Source: an uncultured virus (IMG/VR IMGVR_UViG_3300001765_000140) (lineage: Duplodnaviria; Heunggongvirae; Uroviricota; Caudoviricetes). From it: a DNA stretch of 20,000 nucleotides. The position numbers were made by a program, and so were the translations under genes. The DNA is taken from IMG/VR virus record IMGVR_UViG_3300001765_000140; one strand, given 5' to 3'. How positions within the stretch are numbered: position 1 is the stretch's first letter; each line of letters starts with the position of its first letter. This document shows, piece after piece, positions 852 to 19,921 of the stretch. Under the pieces are notes generated by a model. That model saw nothing but the letters and a program-made list of their open reading frames with translations. It did no database searches and was not told the origin of the DNA.

Positions 852-870
852 AATTAATCTCTATTTTTGA

Positions 871-1434
871 TTACTTCTTTAATTCGTTCAAATATTCGTC
901 AATAGTAACATCGTCAATCTCAATACATAATTCTGAGTTGTGCCATGTCTGAAAGTCTTTGAGAATCTTTTCAATCTCCTCATCCGTAATCTCCTTTGCT
1001 CGGCTATTAGCAAAGCTTTCTCCTGCACAGAAGCCAATATATAAGCCTAAGTGTGCAATATACTCAGGTTCATTCCTACTTTCAAGAACTTCCTTCGTGT
1101 GATTATTTGCATATTCTTCTGCTGTTATCTCCGCCCCCTGTTCACGCTTTGGCTTAACCTGTGAAGCCTTTGACTCCTCTGCCTCAAACGCATAACACTT
1201 ATTTTCATCCATTACTGTTGTATATGACTTAACTGCATCCATTAATCCTAATTTACAATCTGACCAATCATTTTCATATTTTAACGGAATTGCATTCTTA
1301 CAATTAATACAACAATGAATTATTCTTCCCTCAACCTGTGAAGTATCAGGCTTTGGGGAAATAGATTCTTTAGAAAAATATTTATTATAAAACTTTTCAA
1401 CTTGTTCTACGTTTTCACCTATTTTCTTTTTCAT
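871..1434 (-). CDS. hypothetical phage protein (mosaic, Cys-rich central module)
   Basis: 187-aa ORF, co-directional and tightly packed; CCxxC...C...C module; repeated EITxEE and SQV motifs. Confidence 0.75.
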   Translation of the reverse strand: MKKKIGENVEQVEKFYNKYFSKESISPKPDTSQVEGRIIHCCINCKNAIPLKYENDWSDCKLGLMDAVKSYTTVMDENKCYAFEAEESKASQVKPKREQGAEITAEEYANNHTKEVLESRNEPEYIAHLGLYIGFCAGESFANSRAKEITDEEIEKILKDFQTWHNSELCIEIDDVTIDEYLNELKK

Positions 1435-1744
1435 GAATTTTAATATATTCGTTTACTTTATTATGATGAATAAAATCAGCCATACCTGAATTACTATTCC
1501 ACCAATTTGCAAAATGTTGCAATCTTAATTTATCAATAGTTTCCTTCTCTTGCTCTCTTGGCTGTTCAGCCTTAATCAAATCACGTCTAATGATTTTAAG
1601 GTATTCTGAGTTAACAGAATCAGAGTTATTGTCAACATCCCATTTGATAATACATTCAATTATGTCTTTTATCTCTGCGTTGCTTGGCTGTTCAGGTTCA
1701 ATCTGATCAAGTTCATCGGCTATGGTATTTATATTATAACTCAT
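1415..1744 (-). CDS. hypothetical phage protein
   Basis: 109-aa ORF; starts 2 nt after the initiator stop and overlaps the next gene. Confidence 0.75.
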   Translation of the reverse strand: MSYNINTIADELDQIEPEQPSNAEIKDIIECIIKWDVDNNSDSVNSEYLKIIRRDLIKAEQPREQEKETIDKLRLQHFANWWNSNSGMADFIHHNKVNEYIKIHEKENR

Positions 1745-1746
1745 AG

Positions 1747-2562
1747 TTAAATTTTATTAAAGAATCCTTCTTCTGCCTTATCGAACTGAGCCTGAGTGAT
1801 TACTCTAGTCCGACCATATATGTCACGCACCTTAAAGACTGCCTCGTTACTAGGAACGGCATTCTCTTCGGCTGTAGTAACATCGTTTTCAGTAAGCACA
1901 CGCTGAACTCCGCCCTTAGGTATCTCATTCAGATAGGTGTCAAAGTGAGACGGTCTGAATAAGGTATCGGGTCTAATAAATAAGCGCATTTTGTCGTCAG
2001 TACTCCATTGATTGTGCTTCCATGTAATAACCTTTTCAAAATCCTCCTTAGTGTGACCCTCATCAAGCCTGCCCCTTACGAGCTTTCTGTAGGCTTCGGT
2101 CTTTATCTTTAGGTTTTTACGTGTAATTTTGTTGAACATTTCCAATATCTCAGTAATGATCGGTTCTTGTTTTTCTTTTTCCCTGAATTTCTGAGTGCGC
2201 GGAGTCGAGCTCAGCGTAGTATGTTGATATTTTTCCCAATTATTTACCCGCATAAAGCCTTCGTCATCGACGACTAGCAGTCTATAATCGGAACTTGAAA
2301 ATTCGTTTATAATTGTTCTGATGAAGTCAATGCCATGAGTAATAGCGACAACATCAAAAATGGATAGCAGAGATAGATCGTCGTGAGGCTGATCTTCGCT
2401 CTGATTAAAAGCACCGGACATCTTAGTGGCTTGAGTTAAGATCATATGCCACATCCAATAGATCGCGAATACGTCTTTGCCGTATTTGTGATATAATTTC
2501 TTAAACTTTACATCAGTTATCATATCAATTGTACATCTGTAATAAGGTGTGAATAAAGCCAT
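1747..2562 (-). CDS. phage replication initiator (N-terminal wHTH/replisome-organizer-like domain plus Phg_2220_C domain)
   Basis: C-terminal EILEMFNKIT...RGRLDEGHTKEDFEKVI...W..DDKMRLFIRPDTLF..HFDTYLNE matches the Phg_2220_C pattern; NWEKYQ..SSTPRTQKFREK is typical of the N-domain end; near the primase-helicase. Confidence 0.85.
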   Translation of the reverse strand: MALFTPYYRCTIDMITDVKFKKLYHKYGKDVFAIYWMWHMILTQATKMSGAFNQSEDQPHDDLSLLSIFDVVAITHGIDFIRTIINEFSSSDYRLLVVDDEGFMRVNNWEKYQHTTLSSTPRTQKFREKEKQEPIITEILEMFNKITRKNLKIKTEAYRKLVRGRLDEGHTKEDFEKVITWKHNQWSTDDKMRLFIRPDTLFRPSHFDTYLNEIPKGGVQRVLTENDVTTAEENAVPSNEAVFKVRDIYGRTRVITQAQFDKAEEGFFNKI

Positions 2563-2582
2563 TGTCGTGTAGGTTTTAGATA

Positions 2583-2619
2583 AGTTAAATAAGCCCCTCT
2601 CTAATGAAAGAGAAGGGCT
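2583..2619 (-). terminator. intrinsic terminator after the SSB-like gene
   Basis: Minus-strand hairpin AGCCCTTCTCT/AGAGAGGGGCT (11 bp, one G-U) followed by a T-rich tail. Confidence 0.65.
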
Positions 2620-2641
2620 GTAATCTTAAATTAATTTGGGA

Positions 2642-3027
2642 CTAAAATGGAAGATCGTCCTCATTCTGAGAATCATTCTCCGGCAAGCTAGACTTGTTTT
2701 GTTCCGGAGCACTATCACCCGTAGGAAGTGGAGCTGATTTTTTAACTCCGTCAGCCTTAATCCTCCATCCGTTAAGAGAGGTGAAACATCTTTCGCCATT
2801 CTTTGTTTCAGCGACATTGCCCCTGATATTGACGTCAACAGATACCATCTGCCCTTTTTTCAGACCATTAAGGAGCGCACATTTGTCCTTGACAAATTCA
2901 ACTGAAATTGTCTGAGGATATCGATCTCGATCCAAAGCTCACGCTTACTGAATGTGTCACTGATCTGATTAATGTCACAAACCTTTACGATTTTTCCTGC
3001 GAGTGTTAATCCTGTACTTTCTGCCAT
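2642..3027 (-). pseudogene. DUF3127 family SSB-like OB-fold protein, split by a frameshift near 2920
   Basis: ATG at 3027 gives MAESTGLTLAGKIVKV...FSKRELWIEID; the -1 frame continues YPQTISVEFVKDKC...FTSLNGWRI...EDDLPF (acidic SSB-type tail). Real lesion versus sequence error is unresolved. Confidence 0.8.
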
Positions 3028-3065
3028 AATTGAAAATTGTTTTTAGTGTAAATGAATAATTAGTG

Positions 3066-3368
3066 TTAAATATTTCCCAAACGTAAATTGAATTCTGTTA
3101 CAAGTGATCGAGATTTCCCTGTAATCACATGTTGCCTGCTGATTCCTGGCTTGCGGTCTCTTGCTATTTTTACCCATCCGCCTGCAACTAGACGCCTCAT
3201 TGCGTCAATCATTGTTGGCTTAGAAGCCGGAACATGCATCATCACTGCATACTGTGTGAACATTGGATTCTCAGAGCCCCAAAGAATGATGTCCACTTCA
3301 TACTTTTTAAGGCTGTTCTTGTCGGCAAATTCGCTGACCAACTGCTGAAAGCTTCCTATCTTAATCAT
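3066..3368 (-). CDS. winged-helix (MarR-like) DNA-binding protein
   Basis: SKPTMIDAMRRLVAGGWVKIARD...HVIT wHTH pattern; probable start MIKIG at 3368 overlapping the upstream stop. Confidence 0.6.
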   Translation of the reverse strand: MIKIGSFQQLVSEFADKNSLKKYEVDIILWGSENPMFTQYAVMMHVPASKPTMIDAMRRLVAGGWVKIARDRKPGISRQHVITGKSRSLVTEFNLRLGNI

Positions 3369-3984
3369 TGAAATTCCCTTCAACAAAATCACTTATACTA
3401 AGTGTGGACTCATTATAGAGTAATAAAAGAGCTATCAACTCCTTCTTATCAGCAGGATATTTTTTGATCTCTACTATCTCTGCCCATACTCCGCTCTTGT
3501 AAATCGCACCACCATATCCATCGGTAAGATAACTACGATCACTACCATAGTGATAACGCATTTTAGTAAAGTCGCCCACCTGCTTAATCTTACCATCATT
3601 AAGATACTTAGTACCTGTTTTATAACCCTTGTGTTCTGCAATTTCAAGAAGATATGTTGACATGTCTGCTATTTTCATGAACGCATTTTCTCTAGAGAAT
3701 ACAAACACATTTGCTCCCTGACCTACAATGACGGCATTTCTATAGGTTTCTATTGACCTAAACGCCAACACTACGAATGGAATATCTCTCTCCGGATATG
3801 CTCCCGATTTAAACCCCTCGAAATTTTTTCCATATGTATGTGTGGTACATACAGCGCCTTCATTAACACACAGTACATAGTCTCCAACAGAGTAGTTTCC
3901 GCATGAGTTTTTAACTGAACATACTTCCTTTTTTTCATACAATATACCGTCTACCTCAATGTAGTTTTTTTCAATTTTTCGCAT
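3361..3984 (-). CDS. hypothetical phage protein
   Basis: 207-aa ORF in operon with an AT-rich leader. Confidence 0.8.
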   Translation of the reverse strand: MRKIEKNYIEVDGILYEKKEVCSVKNSCGNYSVGDYVLCVNEGAVCTTHTYGKNFEGFKSGAYPERDIPFVVLAFRSIETYRNAVIVGQGANVFVFSRENAFMKIADMSTYLLEIAEHKGYKTGTKYLNDGKIKQVGDFTKMRYHYGSDRSYLTDGYGGAIYKSGVWAEIVEIKKYPADKKELIALLLLYNESTLSISDFVEGNFND

Positions 3985-3999
3985 TTTATTTTTATTAAA

Positions 4000-4842
4000 T
4001 TATTTACTATAAATTCCATCAATATAAACCACTTTTCTTTCCGGAGTCAATCGGCTATAAATACAGCCTGTAAGCAGAGGGCACTTCTTGCATCTTTTCA
4101 TGTTTGGCTTAGGAATGAATCCTTTTTCCATACACTGATTAATGCCGATAAGAGTGGATTCAATAAGCTTCTCTATTTCAGCCATTGCATAGTCAAAATC
4201 ATAGAGATTGACCTGCCAAAACTCGTAATCTACATCGTTAGTAGTTGAATGAATGAGGAAGTAAAACGGCATGTCTCTTACCCCAAGAACCTTCAACGCT
4301 AGGTATTTGTAGAAAACAACCTGAATGGTTAGCTTATTACGGAGATTAAATGAGTTTTCTTCCCATCCGTATTCTTCCCACTGATTACCAATAAGCCCTG
4401 ATGATTTGATGTCCACTATACATGGTTCACCTTTGATTGTTCCGAAGATATCCAAGACACCCTTAACCCGATAATTCATTTCCGGATAGTTTAGCTGCAA
4501 CACCTTACCTGTCTCATATATTTCCAATCCTTCTGTTTGCGCTAGAAGTTTGAAGTTAGCAGCCTGCTGCTCCATTCGTTTTGCTTCTGCTGTAGGTTTT
4601 CCGGTGGAAGTCTGAGGCATTGGCGGCGTGCTACCATCCCTGTTAAGAGCTCCTGTGCATAAATACTCGAAATATTGTCCAAGTAACATGCGGTCAGAAG
4701 GAATGGATGGAACTCGTCTAGTAACATCCGTATCGCGCAATACAATGCCGCAATAAGAACTATCACTATAGTCCCACCATTTCTTAATGAGAGAGGCGGA
4801 GATACTGATCTCTATTTTATCAGCACTCTCCAACCCTAACAT
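4000..4842 (-). CDS. PD-(D/E)XK exonuclease, Cas4/RecB-like, probable Fe-S cluster
   Basis: ISASLIK..C, GVLD..IVDIKS, QVVFY and C-terminal CKKCPLLTGC; probable start MLGLE at 4842, just after the ERF stop. Confidence 0.85.
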   Translation of the reverse strand: MLGLESADKIEISISASLIKKWWDYSDSSYCGIVLRDTDVTRRVPSIPSDRMLLGQYFEYLCTGALNRDGSTPPMPQTSTGKPTAEAKRMEQQAANFKLLAQTEGLEIYETGKVLQLNYPEMNYRVKGVLDIFGTIKGEPCIVDIKSSGLIGNQWEEYGWEENSFNLRNKLTIQVVFYKYLALKVLGVRDMPFYFLIHSTTNDVDYEFWQVNLYDFDYAMAEIEKLIESTLIGINQCMEKGFIPKPNMKRCKKCPLLTGCIYSRLTPERKVVYIDGIYSK

Positions 4843-4858
4843 TTCGCTTATATCCTGA

Positions 4859-5530
4859 TTACTCAGTTGCTGCTCCGGCATCTGTTGATTTTTTATCAGC
4901 CTTTGGGGCTTTGTATTTTCCACCCATCTTAATTACAGCAGCCTTGAAGTCAGAGTCTGTCTGAAAATCTGAGTTAGAAGTCCATAGTGCGGTTACGCTA
5001 GCCAAGTCCTTGCAGGCATTTACGCTTGCAACAAGAGTTTTTACTGCATCAGCACGCTTATCAGCAGCAGCGGCGGGAGTCTCGTTCTTTTCCTGAAACG
5101 CATCCGGATCGTCTTTGTCGGTAGGAATATTGAACTGCTTAAGAACAAAATACTTTTCAGCATAAGTCATAGCCTTTCCAACACCCTTTTCTCCGGCAAT
5201 GTCAACACCCTGACCATACCAAGGAAGTTCAAGAGTTTGTCCGGTCTCTGTATCAATCCATGTGAATGTAATCCAAAGTTCGGTGAAGTAGGTGATACGC
5301 TTTTTCTTTTCATCGCCCTCTTCATGAATAATCAGATTGGAGTTAGTCACCTTGGCTGTCAGAATAAGACCAACCTCATTCATCTTTTCCCTGACAGAAG
5401 TCAGAACCTGAGACGAAGAGGTGTATTTATACTGTGCGCCTTGTGCTACTTTTTGGAGGTAAGCTACTGCTTTTTTAACCTCAAGCAACTTTTTGAACAG
5501 GGAATTGCTATCCTGTTTTGTTTCTGCCAT
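4859..5530 (-). CDS. erf: ERF-family ssDNA annealing protein
   Basis: YKYTS, GQGVD..EKGVGKAMTYAEKYFVLKQFNIPT.DDPD ERF signature; adjacent to an exonuclease. Confidence 0.9.
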   Translation of the reverse strand: MAETKQDSNSLFKKLLEVKKAVAYLQKVAQGAQYKYTSSSQVLTSVREKMNEVGLILTAKVTNSNLIIHEEGDEKKKRITYFTELWITFTWIDTETGQTLELPWYGQGVDIAGEKGVGKAMTYAEKYFVLKQFNIPTDKDDPDAFQEKNETPAAAADKRADAVKTLVASVNACKDLASVTALWTSNSDFQTDSDFKAAVIKMGGKYKAPKADKKSTDAGAATE

Positions 5531-5567
5531 ACATGTAGATTTAAATGAATAAAATTGAAATAGAATA

Positions 5568-5599
5568 CAAAGATAAGTAAAATTTATGACATATGCAAA
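5568..5599 (-). promoter_or_regulatory. Bacteroidota primary-sigma promoter for the recombination/replication operon
   Basis: TTTG-N20-TATCTTTG on the minus strand. Confidence 0.85.
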
Positions 5600-5614
5600 T
5601 ATTTACTCAGTTAT

Positions 5615-5875
5615 CTAGGGTTTAAAAGCACTAGCGTCATGCCAAATAGTTTTGACACCTTTGACAATGTACTTAGTAGCAACATTCTTAGCATGCGAGT
5701 TAGAAAGTCTACCCACCACAATAATATCGGTAGCTATAGATTGCCTAAACATGGTATTGTGAGATTTAAGAGCTCCACGCATTAAGCGTCTTACTGATTT
5801 GCCGGAAATATAACTTCCGCTCTGCTCTTTCATTTTACCTACAAACGGTTTGTTTGGATTCATAGTTTTTGCCAT
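5615..5875 (-). CDS. hypothetical basic protein
   Basis: 86-aa ORF with AT-rich leader. Confidence 0.7.
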   Translation of the reverse strand: MAKTMNPNKPFVGKMKEQSGSYISGKSVRRLMRGALKSHNTMFRQSIATDIIVVGRLSNSHAKNVATKYIVKGVKTIWHDASAFKP

Positions 5876-5887
5876 AGTAATAATAAT

Positions 5888-6037
5888 TTATTGTTTACAA
5901 ACTTTATTAATAAAATCAATTTCATCCTGTGATAAATGCGACTTCTCAAATTGCTCAATAGCCTGCGCATCCGAACTGTCATCGTCTATAATGATATCAT
6001 CTGCTATGATGACGTCATCGTTATTTAGCATGCTCAT
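5888..6037 (-). CDS. small acidic protein (49 aa)
   Basis: Hand translation: MSMLNNDDVIIADDIIIDDDSSDAQAIEQFEKSHLSQDEIDFINKVCKQ. Confidence 0.6.
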   Translation of the reverse strand: MSMLNNDDVIIADDIIIDDDSSDAQAIEQFEKSHLSQDEIDFINKVCKQ

Positions 6038-6174
6038 TATCTGTCTTCCTCAATGCCTTAAGTTTATCTTTATATTTAAATGTTAATTGATAGGATATTT
6101 GTTGAGCCTCAATTTCTTGCGGAAAGAATTCCTCCGGAAGATTCTGATTAACTTTGCGTCCCTTAAACCAAACA

Positions 6175-7062
6175 TCATTCTTTTGGTATAAAGTTTAAAA
6201 TCCAAGCTACTACTTTGGTTGTGAAACCATTTCCGATCATCTTATAACGCTGAGTTTCGCTTATGCCATCCACATCAGTCCATCCGGTAGGCAATGTCTG
6301 CAGTCTCTCGCATTCCCATGGAGTTAATCTTCTACCAAGTTGCTCAATCACACCATACGGAACTCCCTTCCACATGTTTGCGGTAAGCGGTGACGATTTG
6401 TGATCAAGTTTATTCGGCATAAAATTCCATCTAGACTTGCCACCTAATCCTATCCGGCTCATATAAGCTATTGCCTTCTCAGATAGGAAGTATCGAGTTG
6501 CATTCGATATCGGATCGCATTCATTCATGATCACATCCATCAGAACTTCGGCATTAAAATCAGGTAATTGCAGCATATCGACAGGAATGTTTGTCCAATA
6601 CAGGCGATCTCGGTTCTGTGCTGAGAACAGATTTGAGTTGATCCTGATGGGCTGACATCCCATAGCTTCGGACATTTTATCCCTGTCGGATATGCGCATG
6701 GAAGCAACATTCTCCAATAAAAAGTACTTGAAATTTCCCTCATTCTTAATCCGGACGTATTCGTAAAACAATGATGACTGATCGCCTTTAAGCCCCTGAC
6801 CATTGCCTGCAGAACTAAGGTTGGTGCATGGAGAGCCGCCGATAAGCAGATCAAACTGATCAAACTGATATCCACTAACAAGCCTAACATCACCCATGTT
6901 TCTATAAAACGGCACTCTTTCGTCAGCAACATCGCTTGCATAAGGATCGATTTCCGATGCATAGTATTCAATACTGCGACCCTCAGTAAGACCTGCCTTG
7001 CGTAGCGCATCATAAGTCATTGCGCAGCCATCAAATAAACTAAGAACTCTGAAATTTTTCAT
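6175..7062 (-). CDS. DNA (cytosine-5)-methyltransferase, orphan
   Basis: Motifs I LSLFDG, IV GGSPC, VI LLENV, VIII QNRDRLYW, IX RRLTPWECERLQ and X IGNG. Confidence 0.95.
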   Translation of the reverse strand: MKNFRVLSLFDGCAMTYDALRKAGLTEGRSIEYYASEIDPYASDVADERVPFYRNMGDVRLVSGYQFDQFDLLIGGSPCTNLSSAGNGQGLKGDQSSLFYEYVRIKNEGNFKYFLLENVASMRISDRDKMSEAMGCQPIRINSNLFSAQNRDRLYWTNIPVDMLQLPDFNAEVLMDVIMNECDPISNATRYFLSEKAIAYMSRIGLGGKSRWNFMPNKLDHKSSPLTANMWKGVPYGVIEQLGRRLTPWECERLQTLPTGWTDVDGISETQRYKMIGNGFTTKVVAWILNFIPKE

Positions 7063-7081
7063 TGTCGTGTAAATTTATTGG

Positions 7082-7828
7082 TTATTCAAATTCAGAAAAT
7101 ATTACATTGTACTCCGGATTAGGAGCAATATGATCTATTAGGAATGTATGAACCTTTTTGAGAGAGTCCATGCGTCTCACCGGAGGAGCGTTTTTAAGGG
7201 CATAGGTGAGGTGATTGTACAGCGACCATATTGTGCGAGCCTTAAATGAATCAAAGCTCGGAGAACGAAGCTCAGCTATAGCAGCGTTCAATTCTACGCC
7301 TGAAATCAACTCGTGTTCAACATATATTCTCCCAAGCAGTTCCGACTCCGACCTAAGATCGGTATGAAATCTCTGCATGAGGCGAGTATCGTTGATAGCT
7401 TTCTGAAATGCTCCCTCAATAGATTCAACAGCTACTTTGATCAGATTCTTAAGATCAGCACCTATGCCTGAGGTATGTTTCCGGTATGAGAATATTTCAC
7501 CCACAACCATTCCATTGCCACAAACAAATACATGAGCACCGCTAACCAATTTGATAGGCAGGTGTTTGTTATAGCTGTTCATATAGGCAAACATCTGACA
7601 AAACGGCAAACTATCATCAGTGCCTTCCTTGTACAACTTCATATGCCCAACAATCTCATCACCATCCCTTGCTTCGGTAACGTGATTAGTTAATACTGAA
7701 TAACCCTGAGCATTCAGTTCGGCAATAATAGCCGTAATCAAGTCCATGTGAGGAATTGGACAGTAAGATTTCGTAGTAGCAGGCACGAGTGCGCTGTCAG
7801 ACCAATGTAAACCGCGTGATTTTTTCAT
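7082..7828 (-). CDS. DUF932/DUF945 family protein
   Basis: SYCPIPH, NSYNK...GAHVFVCGNGM and TIWSLYNHLT pattern; probable start MKKSRG at 7828. Confidence 0.8.
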   Translation of the reverse strand: MKKSRGLHWSDSALVPATTKSYCPIPHMDLITAIIAELNAQGYSVLTNHVTEARDGDEIVGHMKLYKEGTDDSLPFCQMFAYMNSYNKHLPIKLVSGAHVFVCGNGMVVGEIFSYRKHTSGIGADLKNLIKVAVESIEGAFQKAINDTRLMQRFHTDLRSESELLGRIYVEHELISGVELNAAIAELRSPSFDSFKARTIWSLYNHLTYALKNAPPVRRMDSLKKVHTFLIDHIAPNPEYNVIFSEFE

Positions 7829-7832
7829 AGTG

Positions 7833-7865
7833 CAAATGTATAACAAATTAATTGATTAATCCAAA
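7833..7865 (-). promoter_or_regulatory. Bacteroidota promoter directly abutting the DUF932 ATG
   Basis: TTTG-N21-TACATTTG followed by CACT-ATG. Confidence 0.8.
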
Positions 7866-7872
7866 TTATTTC

Positions 7873-7911
7873 AAAATAAAATCAGGGCATAGCATTAAAA
7901 CCACGCCCTAA
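7873..7911 (-). terminator. intrinsic terminator
   Basis: Minus-strand hairpin AGGGCGTGG/CTATGCCCT followed by GATTTTATTTT. Confidence 0.75.
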
Positions 7912-7920
7912 TTATCATGC

Positions 7921-8880
7921 TTAAGCCTGAGATTTGTATGCATCATAGATAGCTTTCGCCTCTCTAAGCCCAAGACCTGTGCGATCTTTGATATGCTTAA
8001 CGGCTTCAAGATTTCTACCGCTAGCCATCATCATTTTCTCTTCCTGAGTTATGAGGGTGGACGCTGCATCATTAAGCATTACGGCAAACGCTTCAATATC
8101 TCCTTTTACGAGTGTATCAAAAATAGTAGTGCCATCCTTAACATCCTCGATTGAGTCAGCGTGAAACATGTTGTACTTACCATCCTCAAACAAGAAATAT
8201 AGCATTTTACCTATATTAGTTCTTACCTGCTGAGAATGATTGTACATGTTATCGTTCCATGCAAACCCGCGTCTAAATGCAAGTAGTTGAACATACTCCT
8301 GACCTGTTGGAGAACTAGTAGCTATTGCAAATGAAGGACGCTCTTTTTTATTTATAGCGGCTGTCAGTTCTATTATCCGGTTTTTGAGTTTTGTATTCTC
8401 GCATGTTAGCTCGTTTATATCCAACAACAGCCTAGAGCTATTAAGTCCGGCATTTTTTAACTCACCACTTATAGATTCAATACGCTCTCTAGCTTTAGCA
8501 GTATTACTAAGGCTAAGTAAAAGCGCCTCACGTGATGATCTGTACTCTTTTTCAAAATAATTAGCCTTAGTCTGTAGCTCAGAATTATCTTTAGCTGTTT
8601 CTATGCCGTCAATATAAATCCGGTAGCGATCTGCATGAATAAGCGGCACGTTGCTGTCGGTTACATGAAAACCCTGCTCACGCTTACCCTTGCGATCCGC
8701 CTGAGAGCCTCTAACCCTGATACTGTACTTGCTGCCATTCAATGCCTTCTTAAGCATAGCAATAAACAGTTCAGCAATAGGATTCTTTTTGATATTAAAC
8801 ACAAATGCGTGTCCTTCGTCTGTACGACCAACTTCAAGTTGATCAACAATAGCCTGATGAATGTTTCCTAATTTTGTCAT
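7921..8880 (-). CDS. coiled-coil protein with a C-terminal ribosomal L7/L12-CTD-like motif
   Basis: C-terminal GRNLEAVKHIKDRTGLGLREAKAIYD; heptad-rich middle region. Confidence 0.7.
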   Translation of the reverse strand: MTKLGNIHQAIVDQLEVGRTDEGHAFVFNIKKNPIAELFIAMLKKALNGSKYSIRVRGSQADRKGKREQGFHVTDSNVPLIHADRYRIYIDGIETAKDNSELQTKANYFEKEYRSSREALLLSLSNTAKARERIESISGELKNAGLNSSRLLLDINELTCENTKLKNRIIELTAAINKKERPSFAIATSSPTGQEYVQLLAFRRGFAWNDNMYNHSQQVRTNIGKMLYFLFEDGKYNMFHADSIEDVKDGTTIFDTLVKGDIEAFAVMLNDAASTLITQEEKMMMASGRNLEAVKHIKDRTGLGLREAKAIYDAYKSQA

Positions 8881-8883
8881 GGT

Positions 8884-9102
8884 TTATTTATTAAGTATTT
8901 CGTTTACTGATTCCTGATGTAGTATGCATATATGCCAATCAGTCACATTGCCACTGCAATTGCGAGCCGGATTAAACATAAGGGTAAAGGGTTCGTTCTT
9001 ATTGTAAGAACTTATTGCGCTTTCCATAGCCTCATCACAGGTCTTGCACTTGCTCCACCTGTTGATCTGCTTCATTACGATCCTGAGAAATTTAGTTTTC
9101 AT
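8884..9102 (-). CDS. hypothetical protein
   Basis: 72-aa ORF, TAATG-coupled to the upstream gene. Confidence 0.7.
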   Translation of the reverse strand: MKTKFLRIVMKQINRWSKCKTCDEAMESAISSYNKNEPFTLMFNPARNCSGNVTDWHICILHQESVNEILNK

Positions 9103-9260
9103 TAATATCCTTTTTTACGTAAATAGATCATTCCCTTCCAACATAGCACGATGGCTATGATGCCTAGGGTTAATTTCCAAAACTGTCCAATAAAACATAC
9201 AATTAATAACGCTCCAAGCAGCATGTTATAAGCCTCTTCAATTAAAATTTCTATACCCAT
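9102..9260 (-). CDS. small membrane protein (52 aa)
   Basis: Hand translation: MGIEILIEEAYNMLLGALLIVCFIGQFWKLTLGIIAIVLCWKGMIYLRKKGY. Confidence 0.65.
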   Translation of the reverse strand: MGIEILIEEAYNMLLGALLIVCFIGQFWKLTLGIIAIVLCWKGMIYLRKKGY

Positions 9261-9287
9261 TAGTCTACAAAGTTAGAGTACATTTTG

Positions 9288-9632
9288 TCATCCAATTTCA
9301 AAACTATCANNNNNNNNNNNNNNNNNNNNNNNNNNNNNNNNNNNNNNNNNNCTAGTACACTTCCATCTTTCAGCTACATTGCCCCAATTTGGAAAACTCA
9401 ATTCCATTTCGTTTATGAATGACAGCAGTGTATACATGTAACCCTTAGTCATAACCTGCATTCCTGAATACGGATTGCGAATAGGGAAGTAAGCGTCCGG
9501 ATCAAACCGGAATGCTGTGACAATACAGGTAGCAATAAATTTGATATCTGCATCGGTGAGATTCTTTACACTTTTAGCGCAATATGATTTGAGTAATGCG
9601 TCTCTGATTTCCTGATCTTTTTCATGCTTCAT
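9288..9632 (-). CDS. hypothetical protein; 3' end uncertain (spans the N gap)
   Basis: ORF track; gap at 9310-9351. Confidence 0.6.
   Translation of the reverse strand: MKHEKDQEIRDALLKSYCAKSVKNLTDADIKFIATCIVTAFRFDPDAYFPIRNPYSGMQVMTKGYMYTLLSFINEMELSFPNWGNVAERWKCTXXXXXXXXXXXXXXXDSFEIG
9310..9351. other. assembly gap (42 N)
   Basis: Run of n characters. Confidence 1.
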
Positions 9633-9807: not shown

Positions 9808-10314
9808 TTATTCGTATTCTAGGCGTGAAATTAACCGGATAGGCATTTTAAGATTATTCTCTTTAAACCTATCCTTTACTTCTTCACAAATTGCATTAGC
9901 CTTATTCATTAATAAAACGGTTTCTATATTCCTCTCGTACTCTTTTTTAATGGCTTTAGCGCAATAGATAAGTGTGTCTCCTGAGGCAATGAGATCATCA
10001 ACAAAGACTAGATGCATTTCTTTTGGTACTTTGCAATATTCATAGCGATCAGCATGAACATCCATGCCTGTATGTGTTGTCTCATTTTCTTTTCTTACAT
10101 AGATTACGTGCCAACTCAAGCATCGCTGAGCTAATGCTGTAGCAATACACATACCCGAACTGCCTCTACATACAAGACCTAAGTCTCTGTCTCCTAGCTT
10201 TTCTATGAGCACTTTAGCTACGGCATCAATATTTCTAAAGAACGTAGCCATGTTAGCATACACAGGATATTCAACCGGAGTACCAACATATCTGATAATG
10301 TTTGATTTAAGCAT
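9808..10314 (-). CDS. type I phosphoribosyltransferase-like protein
   Basis: LVCRGSSG, YVRK and PRPP-binding loop VFVDDLIASGDT. Confidence 0.85.
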   Translation of the reverse strand: MLKSNIIRYVGTPVEYPVYANMATFFRNIDAVAKVLIEKLGDRDLGLVCRGSSGMCIATALAQRCLSWHVIYVRKENETTHTGMDVHADRYEYCKVPKEMHLVFVDDLIASGDTLIYCAKAIKKEYERNIETVLLMNKANAICEEVKDRFKENNLKMPIRLISRLEYE

Positions 10315-10859: not shown

Positions 10860-10884
10860 TTTAGTATAGTTTTAAATTAGTGTG

Positions 10885-10957
10885 TGATCAGGACGGGACT
10901 CGAACCCATATCTGCCGACTCCAAGAGGCGGTTGCTCAGCCATTAAGCCACCTGATC
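10885..10957 (-). tRNA. tRNA-like gene with a non-canonical anticodon arm (identity undetermined)
   Basis: Acceptor GATCAGG/CCTGATC plus A73; D-arm GCTT-AATGGCT-GAGC; T-arm ATGGG-TTCGAGT-CCCGT; anticodon arm CCGCC-TCTTGGA-GTCGG is mismatched. Confidence 0.8.
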
Positions 10958-17082: not shown

Positions 17083-17118
17083 AAAAAAAAAAAGAGAGTC
17101 TAGTTACTCTCTTTTTTT
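17083..17118 (+). terminator. bidirectional intrinsic terminator
   Basis: A-run, GAGAGT-CTAGTT-ACTCTC hairpin, T7. Confidence 0.8.
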
Positions 17119-17134
17119 ATTTATACTGATTCTA

Positions 17135-17166
17135 TTTGGAAATGTCAATTATTTTTCGTATGTTTG
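17135..17166 (+). promoter_or_regulatory. Bacteroidota promoter for the 3-gene operon
   Basis: TTTG-N20-TATGTTTG. Confidence 0.85.
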
Positions 17167-17189
17167 CAGTTCACTAATAAAATTTAATC

Positions 17190-17486
17190 ATGGCTAAAAC
17201 ACTAGACAACACCAACATCGATGATGTTAAAAAGGCAGTTTCTGACGTAAAAGTATTCGGAGACGGTAATTTATTTCAACTTCTAAGCAAAGCCAGCTCT
17301 AAGGAAGAGGGTTGGATGAAAAGCACTAAGGCTATGGAAATTACAGGAGTAGGATGCGTAGTTCAGATTACTACACAGCAGGGTGAAAATATTGCAGAAG
17401 CCCTCATTTTCGTGCCAAAAACAAGAATCATTCCGGTTTTGGATGAGGAAGGAGTCGTAGTTGGTCGCAGGCTAATCGGAGCTTAA
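17190..17486 (+). CDS. hypothetical phage protein (GWMKSTKAMEI motif)
   Basis: 98-aa ORF, first gene after the promoter. Confidence 0.85.
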   Translation: MAKTLDNTNIDDVKKAVSDVKVFGDGNLFQLLSKASSKEEGWMKSTKAMEITGVGCVVQITTQQGENIAEALIFVPKTRIIPVLDEEGVVVGRRLIGA

Positions 17487-17487
17487 T

Positions 17488-17772
17488 ATGACGAGAGATG
17501 AATCTATCAGGGTTATGGAGTTACTGGAAGGCGAAAGGCTGATAAACGTAACTTCCAATAAACAGCTGAGGGTTAATTTAGACGTTCAGCTTCAGATGCT
17601 AAAAGAACTGCCTGCTTCAAGGGAACGTAGCTTGGCAGTAACAAAGCTTCAGGAATGTATTATGTGGATTGGAATGGACTTGAAAAGGCTAGGAGAAGCT
17701 AATCCCTATCCAAATAGCTATAATCCGGAGAATTCAATTGTAGAACCTACAGCAGATGGAATGAAACTATGA
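17488..17772 (+). CDS. Acb2/Tad1-like helical-hairpin protein (candidate immune-signal sponge)
   Basis: SRERSLAVTKLQECIMW resembles the RExxxAxTKLEEAxMW motif of Tad1/Acb2-like proteins. Confidence 0.65.
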   Translation: MTRDESIRVMELLEGERLINVTSNKQLRVNLDVQLQMLKELPASRERSLAVTKLQECIMWIGMDLKRLGEANPYPNSYNPENSIVEPTADGMKL

Positions 17773-18158
17773 AAAAGAAAGTATTCATAATTTGTCCGGT
17801 TAGGTTAGCTAACTCGGAAACAGTTGGTAAATTGGAAGCGTATGCAAGAGGTCTTGAAGAGCTCGGATATGAAGTACACCTACCACATAGGGATACTCAG
17901 CAGGATCAGTCGGGACTCGATATTTGTTTACAGAACGCACACGCTATCTCTGCAGCAGATGAAATTCACATTTTCTATCGAGCCGAAAGTAGTGGCATTC
18001 ACTTCGACATGGGCGTAGCTTTTGCAATGGATATCATCTGTGGAAATAAAAAGGAAGTCGTTATTGTCGAAAATGAGATCGTTCTTCCTGGAAAATCTTT
18101 TCCAAGATTTCTTGAAGAGTGGAAAAATTTCAGAGTAGATATTGATTTAATCGATTAA
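17769..18158 (+). CDS. nucleoside 2-deoxyribosyltransferase-like (NDT/TIR-like fold) protein
   Basis: KVFIICPVR, GYEVHLPHRD, AISAADEIHIF and SSGIHFDMGVAFA; ATGA-coupled to the upstream gene. Confidence 0.75.
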   Translation: MKKKVFIICPVRLANSETVGKLEAYARGLEELGYEVHLPHRDTQQDQSGLDICLQNAHAISAADEIHIFYRAESSGIHFDMGVAFAMDIICGNKKEVVIVENEIVLPGKSFPRFLEEWKNFRVDIDLID

Positions 18159-18160
18159 TA

Positions 18161-18192
18161 TTTGTTTTATTGGAAAATTTTCACTATATTTG
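18161..18192 (+). promoter_or_regulatory. Bacteroidota promoter
   Basis: TTTG-N20-TATATTTG. Confidence 0.85.
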
Positions 18193-18196
18193 CAGA

Positions 18197-18314
18197 GCAA
18201 TTTTCAAAACCTTCAGCTAGCAGCTTAGTCTGCGGCTCATACGGACGAAGAGAGTAGTTCAAGGTGAGTAACAATATTTAGGGGCGGAAGTGCTGATAGC
18301 CGCCCCAACTTTTT
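18197..18314 (+). ncRNA. candidate ~115-nt small RNA
   Basis: Lies between the promoter and a GGGGCGG/CCGCCCC hairpin with T-tract; no ATG; multibranch fold. Confidence 0.5.
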
Positions 18315-18329
18315 AAAAACTAACTAATT

Positions 18330-18797
18330 ATGAAGCCAGGAGATAAGAAGAAGGCAATGTCTAGCAAAGCCAACCCGAAAGTAAATAAGGGAAAGCAAAT
18401 CAAAAAGACAGCTACAAAGAGTACTGCCGGATCGGATAGAGTTCTGATGAAGGTTGCAAGGGAAAGAGATCGTGCTGTTAAGTGGGGAAATAAACTAGTT
18501 GCTAAATCAGAGAAAAAAATAAGCAAACTTAGCTCCAAGCCATCGTCGGAGAGCACTAAGTCTCTAACAGTAAGCGCTAAGGAAGCTAAAGCATTTGGAT
18601 CAAGAGTTGCGTCGGATAGAGCTCATCCAACAAAGAGAAGCATAAATGCCGTTGCGGGAAGGGATCAGTCAGGAAAACTTAATGAAAGAAATAAAAGACA
18701 GACAACATCTCCAAATCCAGGCATAACAGCCAAGCAGCAGAGGTCTAATATATCTCAGGCTAAGAGAGTTAAAAAGGCTAACACGAAGAAGAAGTAG
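18330..18797 (+). CDS. highly basic K/S/A/R-rich protein (possible DNA-condensing protein)
   Basis: 155 aa, low complexity, strongly positively charged. Confidence 0.7.
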   Translation: MKPGDKKKAMSSKANPKVNKGKQIKKTATKSTAGSDRVLMKVARERDRAVKWGNKLVAKSEKKISKLSSKPSSESTKSLTVSAKEAKAFGSRVASDRAHPTKRSINAVAGRDQSGKLNERNKRQTTSPNPGITAKQQRSNISQAKRVKKANTKKK

Positions 18798-18880: not shown

Positions 18881-19243
18881 ATGAAAAAGTTACTTGTCAT
18901 TTTAGCAATCATTTTAATGTCGATATCCGCAAACGCCCAAAGAGCAAGAGGCTCGTGGTTTGTGGGAGCAAAGGAGAGCACGGTTGGTATGTGGACTACT
19001 TCTGAACTAATTCCGGCATTAAGAATAGAAAAGCACGAGATCAGCATCAGCGGATGCAAATATGAGGTTCTGTACAGTAAGAAGTGTTTCCTGCGCAGAG
19101 AACATAATCTCATAATGGTCGATAATGTAAATCCTGAGTTAACAGCATCATTGTCAATACGTAAGATCGGTAATAATGAATATTACGTACTTTTAAGAGA
19201 CAATCAAAAGGGATTTCAAGCGCAGTATTTGTATAAATTATAA
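18881..19243 (+). CDS. secreted/periplasmic protein with a Sec signal peptide
   Basis: MKKLLVILAIILMSISANA|Q; ATG lies downstream of the promoter. Confidence 0.8.
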   Translation: MKKLLVILAIILMSISANAQRARGSWFVGAKESTVGMWTTSELIPALRIEKHEISISGCKYEVLYSKKCFLRREHNLIMVDNVNPELTASLSIRKIGNNEYYVLLRDNQKGFQAQYLYKL

Positions 19244-19296: not shown

Positions 19297-19370
19297 GGGG
19301 TTGGAGCTCGGTTTGGTTGAGCAGGTGCTTTGCAAGCACAAGGTCGAGGGTTCGAATCCCTTCCTCTCCA
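19297..19370 (+). tRNA. tRNA-Ala(TGC), with acceptor-stem mismatches
   Basis: Cloverleaf; loop TTTGCAA; G3-U70; T-loop TTCGAAT. Confidence 0.85.
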
Positions 19371-19373
19371 CAT

Positions 19374-19577
19374 ATGTTAAGGATAAAGGTTTGTAGTTTT
19401 TTATCTAAGGAGCACTTGATTGGAGTAAATTTCAAGTGCTCGTATTGTGGCAAGTGGGTAGAAATTACACCGAATGGTGTTCAGCATTGTGGTCATAAGC
19501 ATACTATATGGAATTCTCTTGGAGAAATATTCCTTATATATTGCAGAGACGGAGGAATGAATGAATACATGTTTTAA
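19374..19577 (+). CDS. small Zn-finger-like protein (67 aa) within the tRNA cluster
   Basis: ATG at 19374; CSYC...CGH motif. Confidence 0.55.
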   Translation: MLRIKVCSFLSKEHLIGVNFKCSYCGKWVEITPNGVQHCGHKHTIWNSLGEIFLIYCRDGGMNEYMF

Positions 19578-19585
19578 AGAGTTTT

Positions 19586-19661
19586 AGCGGGGTAGGCAGA
19601 AGGTGGTTATTGCGCGGTCTCATAAGCCGTACCGTCGTGAGTTCGAGTCTCACCCCCGCTA
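19586..19661 (+). tRNA. tRNA-Met(CAT); fMet/Met/Ile2 identity unresolved
   Basis: AGCGGGG/CCCCGCT acceptor; loop CTCATAA; T-arm GTGAG-TTCGAGT-CTCAC. Confidence 0.88.
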
Positions 19662-19752
19662 CAATAGTACCTCGCCCGCTTCCCACGATCAGCGCGCTCA
19701 GGATAGAAGTAGTGCTGCAGCACGATGTCTTCAACGAGGTCTTTTGCATAAC

Positions 19753-19824
19753 TGCCCTGTAGTGTAATGGCTAACACACTGGACTTTGACTCCGGTAGTT
19801 TAAGTTCGAATCTTAGCGGGGCAA
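19753..19824 (+). tRNA. tRNA-Gln(TTG)
   Basis: TGCCCTG/CGGGGCA acceptor; CTGGA-CTTTGAC-TCCGG anticodon arm. Confidence 0.93.
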
Positions 19825-19834
19825 CAAAGAATAC

Positions 19835-19908
19835 GCTGCGTTGGTGAAGTTGGTTAACACACATGCCTTTCACGCATGGATTCAGGAGTTCGAGCCTCCT
19901 ACGCAGTA
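19835..19908 (+). tRNA. tRNA-Glu(TTC)
   Basis: GCTGCGT/ACGCAGT acceptor; CATGC-CTTTCAC-GCATG anticodon arm. Confidence 0.93.
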
Positions 19909-19921
19909 CTTAAAATATTAT

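What the first reader, a model, noticed from the sequence alone, without database searches (positions are those of the whole stretch)
17135..18158. Self-contained 3-gene operon: unknown protein, Acb2/Tad1-like sponge and NDT/TIR-fold enzyme (candidate anti-nucleotide-signal cassette)
Seen: the operon has its own host-type promoter, an upstream terminator, and tightly coupled genes (1-nt gap, then ATGA overlap). Known: Acb2 and Tad1 sequester CBASS/Thoeris signals with a helical hairpin carrying a TKLEEAxMW-like motif, and NDT-fold proteins are N-glycosidases/transferases structurally related to TIR domains. Seen: the NDT-like gene has Asp (HFDMG) where a catalytic Glu is usual. Inference: this is a bind-and-destroy or decoy module against immune second messengers, and the 98-aa first gene may be an uncharacterised anti-defence factor.
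Basis: partly seen in the sequence, partly recalled or inferred. Interest (0 to 1): 0.75.

Follow-up and report, generated by a model that had tools for sequence, protein, structure and literature searches.

The report
Phage operon with two immune-signal sponges
A phage of a Bacteroidota-type host carries a three-gene operon encoding two small proteins from known families that soak up bacterial alarm molecules, followed by a nucleoside-transferase-like enzyme of unknown role.

Summary
Three + strand genes (98, 94 and 129 aa) lie behind a Bacteroides-type promoter and an upstream terminator, with a 1-nt gap and then an ATGA overlap.

- **Gene 1** is not an unknown. It is a Lockin-family sponge: E 8e-17 to the LockinA crystal chain 9p8l, with all six 3'cADPR contact residues kept. 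Its exact sequence is already in the Lockin homolog table of Tal et al. 2025.
- **Gene 2** is an Acb2-family sponge. It passes the Pfam PF24729 cut-off and is modelled as a two-helix hairpin. Its exact sequence is in the Acb2 homolog table of Hadary et al. 2025. Its closest tested relative (47% identity) blocked only a 3'3'-cGAMP CBASS.
- **Gene 3** has an NDT/MilB fold. Asp replaces the nucleophile Glu in 154 of 177 family domains. In other phages it sits mostly among replication and nucleotide genes, and I found no fusion to a sponge domain.

No other sampled locus has all three genes. Sponge genes do recur next to one another. A close relative uses the same promoter but lacks Lockin.

Verdict: a real counter-defence cassette made of known kinds. 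The "bind-and-destroy" role proposed for gene 3 is unsupported but not excluded.

The parts
17087..17118 (+). Terminator-like hairpin with A-run and T-run. It ends the upstream 55-aa zinc-ribbon gene unit.
   Evidence: 13 pairs, loop of 6, T-run.
17135..17166 (+). Bacteroides-type promoter motif TTTG-N20-TATGTTTG (-33 and -7 elements).
   Evidence: 7 motifs in the window against 0.41 expected, 0 of 200 shuffles. The -7 consensus TAnnTTTG is cited from passages of PMC4747536. The region is homologous to the promoter in front of the Acb2-like gene of relative L058.
17190..17486 (+). Gene 1, 98 aa: Lockin-family sponge. Predicted to sequester the Thoeris signals 3'cADPR and possibly His-ADPR.
   Evidence: PDB 9p8l 'Lockin', E 8e-17; 48% identity to LockinA read from its own scaffold. 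K34, K44, S45, T46, K47 and Q59 match LockinA K35, K45, S46, T47, K48 and Q59; the exact sequence is in the authors' Lockin homolog table.
17488..17772 (+). Gene 2, 94 aa: Acb2-family sponge (Acb2/Tad1 hairpin). Most likely binds a CBASS cyclic dinucleotide.
17769..18158 (+). Gene 3, 129 aa: NDT/MilB-fold protein. Asp80 stands in place of the nucleophile Glu and Asn56 in place of CtNDT Asp62. Its role is open.
18161..18192 (+). Next Bacteroides-type promoter motif, directly after the gene 3 stop.
18281..18306 (+). GC-rich hairpin (GGGGCGG...CCGCCCC) followed by AACTTTTT. Probable terminator for read-through from the operon and for the short unit started at 18161.
   Evidence: MFE -34.5 kcal/mol for 18196-18320, z -2.03. 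The scan did not call it.

Best explanation
This is an accessory counter-defence operon of a phage that uses Bacteroidota-type host promoters. One promoter drives three translationally coupled genes. Gene 1 is a Lockin-family sponge. By homology it should form a hexamer whose inter-protomer pockets lock away the TIR-made Thoeris signal 3'cADPR, and perhaps His-ADPR. Gene 2 is an Acb2-family sponge: a two-helix hairpin that oligomerises. It most likely sequesters a CBASS cyclic dinucleotide of the 3'3'-cGAMP type. Together they would blunt two signalling immune systems early in infection. Gene 3 is an NDT/MilB-fold protein with an Asp nucleophile. I take it to be an N-glycosidase or transferase acting on a nucleotide or nucleoside, co-expressed with the sponges but not part of a fixed module with them. 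Shown here: homology, conserved contact residues, fold, promoter motif and gene order. Inferred: the ligands, the oligomer states and every activity.
For: Gene 1. It matches 9p8l at E 8e-17 and is 48% identical to LockinA. All six ligand-contact residues named in section 7 of bioRxiv 10.1101/2025.07.12.664507 are present. Across 20 family members from viral contigs they are kept in 20, 20, 20, 19, 20 and 20 sequences. The exact sequence is listed as a Lockin homolog.

Gene 2. PF24729 scores 30.9 bits against a cut-off of 27. The Tad1 hairpin matches at E 1.1e-5 with the single sequence and 4.4e-7 with the family profile. The AlphaFold2 model has pLDDT 80.8 with helices 3-40 and 45-67 and no strands. 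The exact sequence is in the Acb2 homolog sheet. It is 47% identical (40 of 86, E 5e-22) to tested Acb2 homolog no. 5. That homolog was positive only against the E. albertii CBASS among 7 systems. The four-copy complex prediction scored 0.77 against a best control of 0.00. That mark was reached by 20 of 30 proteins solved as pairs of one chain and by 1 of 23 solved as single chains. Runs agree in at least 88% of contacts and the partner's pLDDT is at least 73. Solved Acb2 and Tad1 complexes exist, so the pass may be from memory.

Sponge genes cluster.
- Of 67 other gene 2 loci with a gene call, 8 have a Lockin, Sequestin (PF21825) or Tad2 (PF11195) gene adjacent.
- Of 76 Lockin contigs, at least 9 have a PF24729 or Acb4 (PF13876) gene within two genes. 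Only 150 of 239 neighbour clusters were scanned.

Gene 3. The model has pLDDT 93.2. Foldseek gives CtNDT at E 9.5e-5, TM 0.64. VIA gives MilB at Z 12.2, rmsd 2.9 over 116 residues. D80 aligns with the catalytic Glu of BcmB, CtNDT (E88), DNPH1 and TbNDT.

Promoter.
Against: No binding, oligomer state or phenotype was measured for any of the three proteins. Neither sponge copy was itself tested in the cited papers.

Ligand choice within both families varies. Ten tested Acb2 homologs inhibited type I Thoeris rather than CBASS (section 5 of bioRxiv 10.1101/2025.08.24.671296). [quoted passage not shown]

Structure searches with the gene 2 model gave no significant match: Foldseek had none at E <= 0.001, and the VIA rows were generic hairpins. 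Only four copies of gene 2 were folded, not a hexamer, and the confident interface is a dimer.

Gene 3 scores below the Pfam cut-off for PF05014 (17.9 against 28.8). Its substrate is unknown.

The host phylum rests only on the promoter motif.
Confidence: 0.72

Rival explanations
1. Bind-and-destroy. Gene 3 is itself an anti-signal factor. It would be an N-glycosidase or base-exchange enzyme that cleaves ADPR-derived or cyclic-nucleotide immune signals, or a SLOG/TIR-like decoy that binds them, working alongside the two sponges.
For: Gene 3 is translationally coupled to gene 2 in one operon. The gene 2 + gene 3 pair recurs in the nearest relative, L021/L058. A second, unrelated phage has a gene 3 homolog, a radical SAM gene and a Lockin gene packed head to tail (L049). 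The fold is shared with TIR NADases (Z 9-10.8) and with the 3'cADPR-binding ThsA SLOG domain (7uxs, Z 8.3). A family-wide, altered but conserved pocket (F79, D80, G82, N56, S74, Q45) suggests a substrate different from classical NDTs.
Against: Only 2 of 36 other gene 3 loci hold a sponge gene within 4 kb. None of 79 further Lockin loci has a gene 3 homolog. Among 124 neighbours of gene 3 homologs, the only known sponge family seen is the L021 Acb2-like gene. The rest are DNA polymerase, ThyX, helicases, methylases, dUTPase and radical SAM genes. None of 48 long family members is fused to a sponge domain. NDT/MilB rank above TIR/SLOG in both structure searches. There is no PADLOC match.
Confidence: 0.18
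2. Gene 2 is an anti-Thoeris Acb2 variant that binds 3'cADPR, like Acb2_43. The operon would then be a double anti-Thoeris device rather than anti-Thoeris plus anti-CBASS.
For: Ten tested Acb2 homologs inhibited type I Thoeris and Acb2_43 binds 3'cADPR. The best solved sequence match for gene 2 is Tad1, a Thoeris sponge. The Acb2_43 chain 9ptq appears among the weak Foldseek rows (rank 32).
Against: The closest tested relative, in the same subclade and with the same C-terminal tail motif (47% identity), inhibited only the 3'3'-cGAMP CBASS. It was negative on types I, II and IV Thoeris. Acb2_43 uses N- and C-terminal beta strands for its pocket. The gene 2 model has no strands. Gene 2 relatives are repeatedly paired with anti-Thoeris sponges (Lockin, Sequestin, Tad2), which fits complementary rather than redundant targets.
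Confidence: 0.22
3. Gene 3 is a catalytically dead NDT-fold protein, a pseudo-enzyme with a structural or regulatory role, because both classical catalytic positions are changed.
For: The Glu nucleophile is Asp, and the residue aligned with CtNDT D62 is Asn.
Against: Both substitutions are family-wide and strongly conserved: D in 154 of 177 domains and N in 140 of 177. A set of other polar pocket residues is conserved with them. That pattern fits a working site better than decay. The family is large, with 1,064 representative clusters at E <= 0.001.
Confidence: 0.1

Closest known systems
Lockin sponge family (LockinA, PDB 9p8l; Tal et al., bioRxiv 10.1101/2025.07.12.664507)
   Same: Gene 1 has the same length class and is 48% identical to LockinA. 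It keeps the KASS..GWMKSTK core and all six 3'cADPR contact residues. It is already listed by the authors as a homolog.
   Different: This copy is untested, with no 'name in paper' entry. It sits in a phage with Bacteroides-type promoters, as the first gene of an operon with an Acb2-like gene. Its choice between type I and type II signals is unknown.
Acb2 sponge family (PaMx33 Acb2; Acb2_43, PDB 9ptq; Hadary et al., bioRxiv 10.1101/2025.08.24.671296) and the shared Acb2/Tad1 hairpin (Pfam PF24729)
   Same: Gene 2 is about 90 aa, has two long antiparallel helices and the TKLQExxMW motif, and is predicted to self-associate. It is listed as an Acb2 homolog and is 47% identical to a tested anti-CBASS member.
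   Different: It belongs to a subclade with a conserved C-terminal tail, NPYPNSYNPxNxxxEPTADGxKL, that the monomer model leaves disordered. It lacks the beta strands of Acb2_43. By HMMER the only solved sequence match is the Tad1 hairpin, not an Acb2 chain. From recall, Tad1 has an extra N-terminal domain, which gene 2 lacks.
Nucleoside 2-deoxyribosyltransferase / MilB-BcmB CMP N-glycosidase / DNPH1 superfamily (Pfam PF05014)
   Same: Gene 3 has the same Rossmann-like fold (MilB Z 12.2; CtNDT TM 0.64). The S-x-G-x-x-x-[E/D]-x-G motif sits in the same place. Most homologs carry PF05014.
   Different: Asp replaces the nucleophile Glu and Asn replaces CtNDT D62, both family-wide. The family has its own HLPHRDTNQ loop. 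Gene 3 itself scores below the Pfam cut-off. No homolog was found in 50,697 isolate phage records at E <= 1e-5.

Membership tests
Lockin | Significant sequence similarity to an experimentally verified Lockin | tested here: met
   PDB 9p8l chain, E 8e-17. LockinA read from its own scaffold: 48% identity, E 1e-24.
Lockin | Ligand-contact residues of LockinA (K35, K45, S46, T47, K48, Q59) | tested here: met
   They correspond to K34, K44, S45, T46, K47 and Q59 in gene 1. They are conserved in 19-20 of 20 homologs.
Lockin | Homo-hexamer with pockets between protomers | not tested
Lockin | Sequesters 3'cADPR and/or His-ADPR and inhibits Thoeris | not testable with these tools
   Needs binding and plaque assays. 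This copy has no name in the paper's table, so it was not tested there.
Acb2 | Acb2/Tad1 hairpin domain above the curated score | tested here: met
   PF24729 scores 30.9 bits against a cut-off of 27. Most of the 120 listed homologs carry it; 3 (P0044, P0070, P0095) have none precomputed.
Acb2 | Short protomer built of two long antiparallel helices | tested here: met
   AlphaFold2 model: helices 3-40 and 45-67, pLDDT above 85 over residues 1-70. The feature is as described in section 5 of the Hadary preprint.
Acb2 | Homo-hexamer | tested here: inconclusive
   Four copies scored 0.77 against a best control of 0.00. The mark was reached by 20 of 30 proteins solved as pairs of one chain and by 1 of 23 solved as single chains. 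Runs agree in at least 88% of contacts and the partner's pLDDT is at least 73. Only a dimer interface is confident. Six copies could not be submitted.
Acb2 | Binds cyclic oligonucleotide (or 3'cADPR) signals | not testable with these tools
   Inferred only, from tested homolog no. 5 at 47% identity.
Tad1 | Full-length similarity, including the part N-terminal to the hairpin | tested here: not met
   The match covers only chain residues 68-116 of 132. Gene 2 has 94 aa and no strands. It is listed under Acb2 in the published table: both hits in the searched supplement file fall in the Acb2 sheet.
Nucleoside 2-deoxyribosyltransferase (PF05014) | Pfam score above the gathering cut-off | tested here: not met
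   17.9 bits against 28.8 for gene 3 itself. Most of its 75 homologs carry a precomputed PF05014 hit.
Nucleoside 2-deoxyribosyltransferase (PF05014) | NDT fold | tested here: met
   Foldseek: CtNDT E 9.5e-5, TM 0.64. VIA: MilB Z 12.2, NDTs Z 10.9-11.4.
Nucleoside 2-deoxyribosyltransferase (PF05014) | Catalytic Glu nucleophile | tested here: not met
   D80 stands in the column of BcmB, CtNDT E88, DNPH1 and TbNDT Glu. In the family, D occurs in 154 and E in 2 of 177 domains.
TIR domain NADase | Best structural match to TIR domains, with the catalytic Glu | tested here: inconclusive
   TIR chains score Z 8.2-10.8, below MilB and NDT. No Pfam TIR hit.

The most novel reading that the evidence does not exclude
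The Asp-type NDT-fold family of gene 3 has 1,064 representative clusters, is mostly viral, and has no homolog in isolate phage records. It could be an undescribed class of phage counter-defence enzyme that breaks or rewires the glycosidic bonds of TIR-derived ADPR signals, or mops them up like a free SLOG domain. This operon and the L049 locus (NDT-like, radical SAM, Lockin) would be its first genomic footprints.
Probability: 0.15. Interest if true: 0.8.

Novelty: new member of a known kind. Interest (0 to 1): 0.42.

Why it matters
The window shows two different signal sponges, one against Thoeris and one probably against CBASS, wired into a single host-type transcription unit in a phage of a Bacteroidota-type host. 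Neither family has been tested experimentally in such a host. It also shows that the slot behind one conserved promoter is exchanged between close relatives: Lockin is present here and absent in L058. Sponge genes of different families tend to sit side by side, which is a practical guide for finding new ones. The third gene flags a large viral NDT-fold family with an Asp nucleophile and no known function. That family is a cheap candidate to test.

Tried and rejected
- **Structure searches with the gene 2 model.** Foldseek against the PDB gave no match at E <= 0.001. Tad1 chains lead the weak rows and Acb2_43 is at rank 32. VIA wide returned only generic helical hairpins at Z about 8. Neither decides anything for a two-helix protein.
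- **A conserved His/Asp metal site in gene 3.** H37, H40, H78 and D80 are invariant among 55 close homologs. H40 and H78 vary in the wider family: H in 62 and 83 of 177 domains. I dropped the idea.
- **Gene 3 as a Sequestin.** Sequestin is the helical family PF21825. Rejected.
- **Gene 3 as kin of defence-side NDT-like effectors.** There is no PADLOC match at E <= 0.01.
- **Gene 3 linked to a radical SAM enzyme in this phage.** No homolog of the L045 radical SAM protein was found in G001, the 54.8-kb record of the same phage. About 10 kb or more of the genome was not available.
- **A six-copy Acb2 model.** Four copies were run instead.
- **Rfam on 18100-18400.** No match.
- **Earlier notes of this scan.** There are none for this genome.
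- **Literature on phage NDT-like anti-defence proteins.** The search with 'deoxyribosyltransferase, phage, anti-defense, Thoeris' found one paper holding all four terms. Its passages mention only the retron Ec86 NDT-like effector.
Full report
**Observation.** The sequence shows TAA-t-ATG between genes 1 and 2, and ATGA at 17769-17772 between genes 2 and 3. A hairpin with a T-run at 17087-17118 closes the upstream unit, a 55-aa zinc-ribbon ORF.

The sigma-70 scan finds no + strand promoter. The motif TTTG-N20-TATGTTTG lies at 17135-17166. The pattern TTTG-N19-21-TAnnTTTG occurs 7 times in the window against 0.41 expected, and 0 of 200 shuffles reach 7. Each copy is upstream of genes on its own strand. 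TAnnTTTG is the Bacteroides -7 consensus (passages of PMC4747536). The -33 TTTG element is from my recall. The window is phage DNA: primase/helicase, replication initiator, SSB, Erf-like annealing protein, C5 methylase and tRNAs. Record G001 (54.8 kb) overlaps window 1-9309 at 100% identity and is the same phage.

**Gene 1 is a Lockin.** phmmer against PDB sequences gives chain 9p8l_A, 'Lockin', at E 8e-17 over residues 3-80. Against LockinA translated from its own IMG/VR scaffold (L142), identity is 48% (40 of 83, E 1e-24).

Section 7 of Tal et al. (bioRxiv 10.1101/2025.07.12.664507; I read sections 5 part 1, 6 and 7, plus passages) describes Lockin as a hexameric sponge that binds six 3'cADPR molecules. 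The contacts come from K35, K45, S46, T47, K48 and Q59. Family members inhibit type I and/or type II Thoeris. All six residues are present in gene 1 as K34, K44, S45, T46, K47 and Q59. In 20 family members from viral contigs they are kept in 20, 20, 20, 19, 20 and 20 sequences. The exact gene 1 sequence, on scaffold IMGVR_UViG_3300002026_000451, is row 125 of the paper's Lockin homolog table. It has no 'name in paper', so it was catalogued but not tested. A 2026 review counts Lockin among seven characterised sponge families (passages of PMC13712596).

**Gene 2 is an Acb2-family sponge.** Pfam PF24729 (Acb2/Tad1 hairpin) scores 30.9 bits against a cut-off of 27. The only solved sequence match is the hairpin of Tad1: 8kbb at E 1.1e-5, or 4.4e-7 with the family profile. 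The word-index search returned 666 proteins at E <= 0.001. Of the best 120 listed, nearly all carry PF24729 and most have 80-110 aa. Their alignment shows a conserved core, SRERSLAITKLQExxMWLGMDLKRL, and a conserved tail, NPYPNSYNPxNxxxEPTADGLKL.

The AlphaFold2 model (pLDDT 80.8) has two long helices, 3-40 and 45-67, and a disordered tail. That is the Acb2 protomer plan as described in section 5 of Hadary et al. (bioRxiv 10.1101/2025.08.24.671296; I read sections 5 and 10). Structure searches were uninformative. The exact gene 2 sequence is in that paper's 'homologs_Acb2' sheet for this same scaffold.

Among its 84 tested proteins, homolog no. 5 shares the subclade's core and tail motifs. It was positive, in both liquid culture and plaque assay, only against the E. 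albertii CBASS (3'3'-cGAMP). It was negative on types I, II and IV Thoeris, the Yersinia CBASS and both Pycsars. I recovered the same protein from a viral contig (L137). Gene 2 is 47% identical to it (40 of 86, E 5e-22).

A four-copy complex prediction scored 0.77 against a best control of 0.00. That mark was reached by 20 of 30 proteins solved as pairs of one chain and by 1 of 23 solved as single chains. Runs agree in at least 88% of contacts and the partner's pLDDT is at least 73. The confident interface is a hairpin-to-hairpin dimer over residues 20-67. Because Acb2 and Tad1 complexes are solved, the pass may only reflect likeness.

**Gene 3 is an NDT/MilB-fold protein with an altered site.** Gene 3 itself is below the PF05014 cut-off (17.9 against 28.8 bits). 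Most of its 75 homologs carry PF05014. The model is confident (pLDDT 93.2).

| Search | Best matches |
|---|---|
| Foldseek | CtNDT E 9.5e-5, TM 0.64; BcmB; SPARTA TIR E 6.5e-4; DNPH1 |
| VIA wide | MilB Z 12.2 (rmsd 2.9, 116 aligned); NDTs Z 10.9-11.4; TIR domains Z 8.2-10.8; ThsB 8.6; ThsA SLOG with 3'cADPR 8.3 |

The family profile aligned to PDB chains puts D80 in the column of the catalytic Glu of BcmB, CtNDT (E88), DNPH1 and TbNDT. It puts N56 in the column of CtNDT residue 62, which is Asp in the wild type; the matched chain is the D62N mutant.

The family is large: 1,064 representative clusters at E <= 0.001 and 130 at E <= 1e-30. In 177 domains from 151 of its best members, the nucleophile column is D in 154 and E in 2. 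N56 is kept in 140, F79 in 173 and G82 in 173. H40 and H78 vary. So the Asp is a family trait, not a local defect. The ESM Atlas neighbours are viral 'NDT family' clusters. No homolog appears in 50,697 isolate phage records at E <= 1e-5.

**Linkage.**

| Loci examined | Result |
|---|---|
| 18 other loci of close gene 1 relatives | 0 have gene 2 or gene 3 homologs within 4 kb |
| 79 further Lockin loci, including LockinA's own scaffold | 0 have a gene 3 homolog; 3 (one layout) have a weak gene 2-profile hit |
| 36 other gene 3 loci | 1 has gene 2 (L021, the nearest relative); 1 has a Lockin (L049: NDT-like 96-452, radical SAM 455-1774, Lockin 1808-2143, all on +) |

Neighbours of gene 3 homologs were taken from 32 loci with a gene call, giving 124 proteins. 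They are DNA polymerase A, ThyX, helicases, DnaB, DNA methylases, dUTPase, NADAR and another NDT-like protein. Radical SAM proteins occur in 6 loci; phrog_9298 is confirmed in L036, L044, L045 and L049.

I checked 48 of the 150 listed family members, all of 190 aa or more (two further members of 258 aa were left out and not checked). They show tandem duplications and fusions to YunG (2), YopX (1), ASCH (1) and DUF1937/DUF4406 (1). None is fused to PF24729, PF11195, PF13876 or PF21825.

The two sponge families, by contrast, keep sponge company. Of 79 other gene 2 loci, 67 have a gene call.
- L060 and L066 have a roughly 200-aa Lockin fusion directly downstream.
- L072 and four loci with identical neighbours have a Sequestin-family gene (PF21825).
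- L095 has a Tad2 gene (PF11195).

For this I scanned 85 of 131 neighbours. Of the 46 left out, 44 are at least 95% identical to a scanned one, and the 2 from L058 had been scanned under L021. Around Lockin genes I took 290 neighbours from 77 loci and scanned 150 of 239 clusters. PF24729 occurs in 6 loci and the Acb4 family PF13876 on 3 contigs.

**Mosaic structure.** In relative L058 (the same contig as L021), a homologous promoter precedes the Acb2-like gene directly. The two promoters read TTTGGAAATcTCA...TATCTTTG in L058 and TTTGGAAATgTCA...TATGTTTG in the window. L058 has no Lockin. A 94-aa ORF of no known family lies between its gene 2 and gene 3 homologs, and a papain-like peptidase gene follows. 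The slot behind this promoter is therefore exchanged between close relatives.

**Mechanism, with odds.** Early host-polymerase transcription from 17135-17166 yields one mRNA. Lockin hexamers lock away 3'cADPR, and perhaps His-ADPR, so ThsA-type effectors stay off (about 0.85 that gene 1 is a functional Thoeris sponge). The Acb2-like oligomer sequesters a CBASS cyclic dinucleotide (about 0.55). Alternatively it binds 3'cADPR (about 0.2). For gene 3 I commit to a nucleotide or nucleoside N-glycosidase/transferase acting on the nucleotide pool (about 0.5). A signal-cleaving or signal-binding role gets about 0.18 and a non-catalytic role about 0.1. All ligands and activities are inferred; none was measured.

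**Novelty.** Genes 1 and 2 are already catalogued members of published families. The operon layout, the host type and the association with the Asp-type NDT family are new details. The overall rating is a new member of a known kind.

Noticed in passing
window 18161-18320: A further Bacteroides-type promoter motif lies at 18161-18192. About 120 nt follow with no ORF. They fold into two hairpins, the second (18281-18306) followed by a T-run. This may be a small RNA or a leader ahead of the 155-aa basic protein gene at 18330. There is no Rfam match.
   Followed up: partly
window 9808-10314 (- strand): A 168-aa phosphoribosyltransferase-like protein. It matches phrog_2068 (E 2.9e-7) and, weakly, the PADLOC family PRTase_III-A (E 2.7e-6). 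It is a phage copy of a domain also used by defence systems.
   Followed up: no
window 19297-19909 and 10884-10957: A tRNA cluster. ARAGORN finds Met, Gln and Glu at 19586-19909, plus Gln at 10884. Rfam adds a tRNA at 19297-19370 that ARAGORN missed, and does not list the Met one at its gathering score.
   Followed up: no
window about 9310-9355: A masked run (X in the translation of ORF 9288-9632). Record G001 of the same phage ends exactly there, at window 9309.
   Followed up: partly
L058 2865-4793 (same contig as L021): The nearest relative has the same promoter directly before the Acb2-like gene and no Lockin. A 94-aa ORF (3251-3535) with no Pfam family lies between the gene 2 and gene 3 homologs, and a papain-family C1 peptidase gene follows the gene 3 homolog.
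   Followed up: partly
L060 3232-3843; L066 3229-3825: Lockin domains fused behind an N-terminal domain of about 100 aa with no Pfam or PHROG match. Each sits immediately downstream of an Acb2-like gene in AT-rich phage contigs.
   Followed up: partly
L036, L044, L045, L047, L049, L050: Radical SAM genes abut gene 3 homologs in 6 of 32 loci; phrog_9298 is confirmed in four of them. This is a recurrent NDT-like plus radical SAM pair of unknown function. No such gene was found in G001.
   Followed up: partly
L152 2816-3481: A 222-aa protein carries the Acb2/Tad1 hairpin at its C-terminus (PF24729, E 1e-21) and lies directly upstream of a Lockin gene. It is a longer, possibly Tad1-like or fused form.
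   Followed up: no
window 18330-18797 and 18881-19243: A 155-aa lysine-rich basic protein and a roughly 120-aa protein with a signal-peptide-like start. Both are conserved in L058 (E about 1e-11) and have no family match.
   Followed up: no
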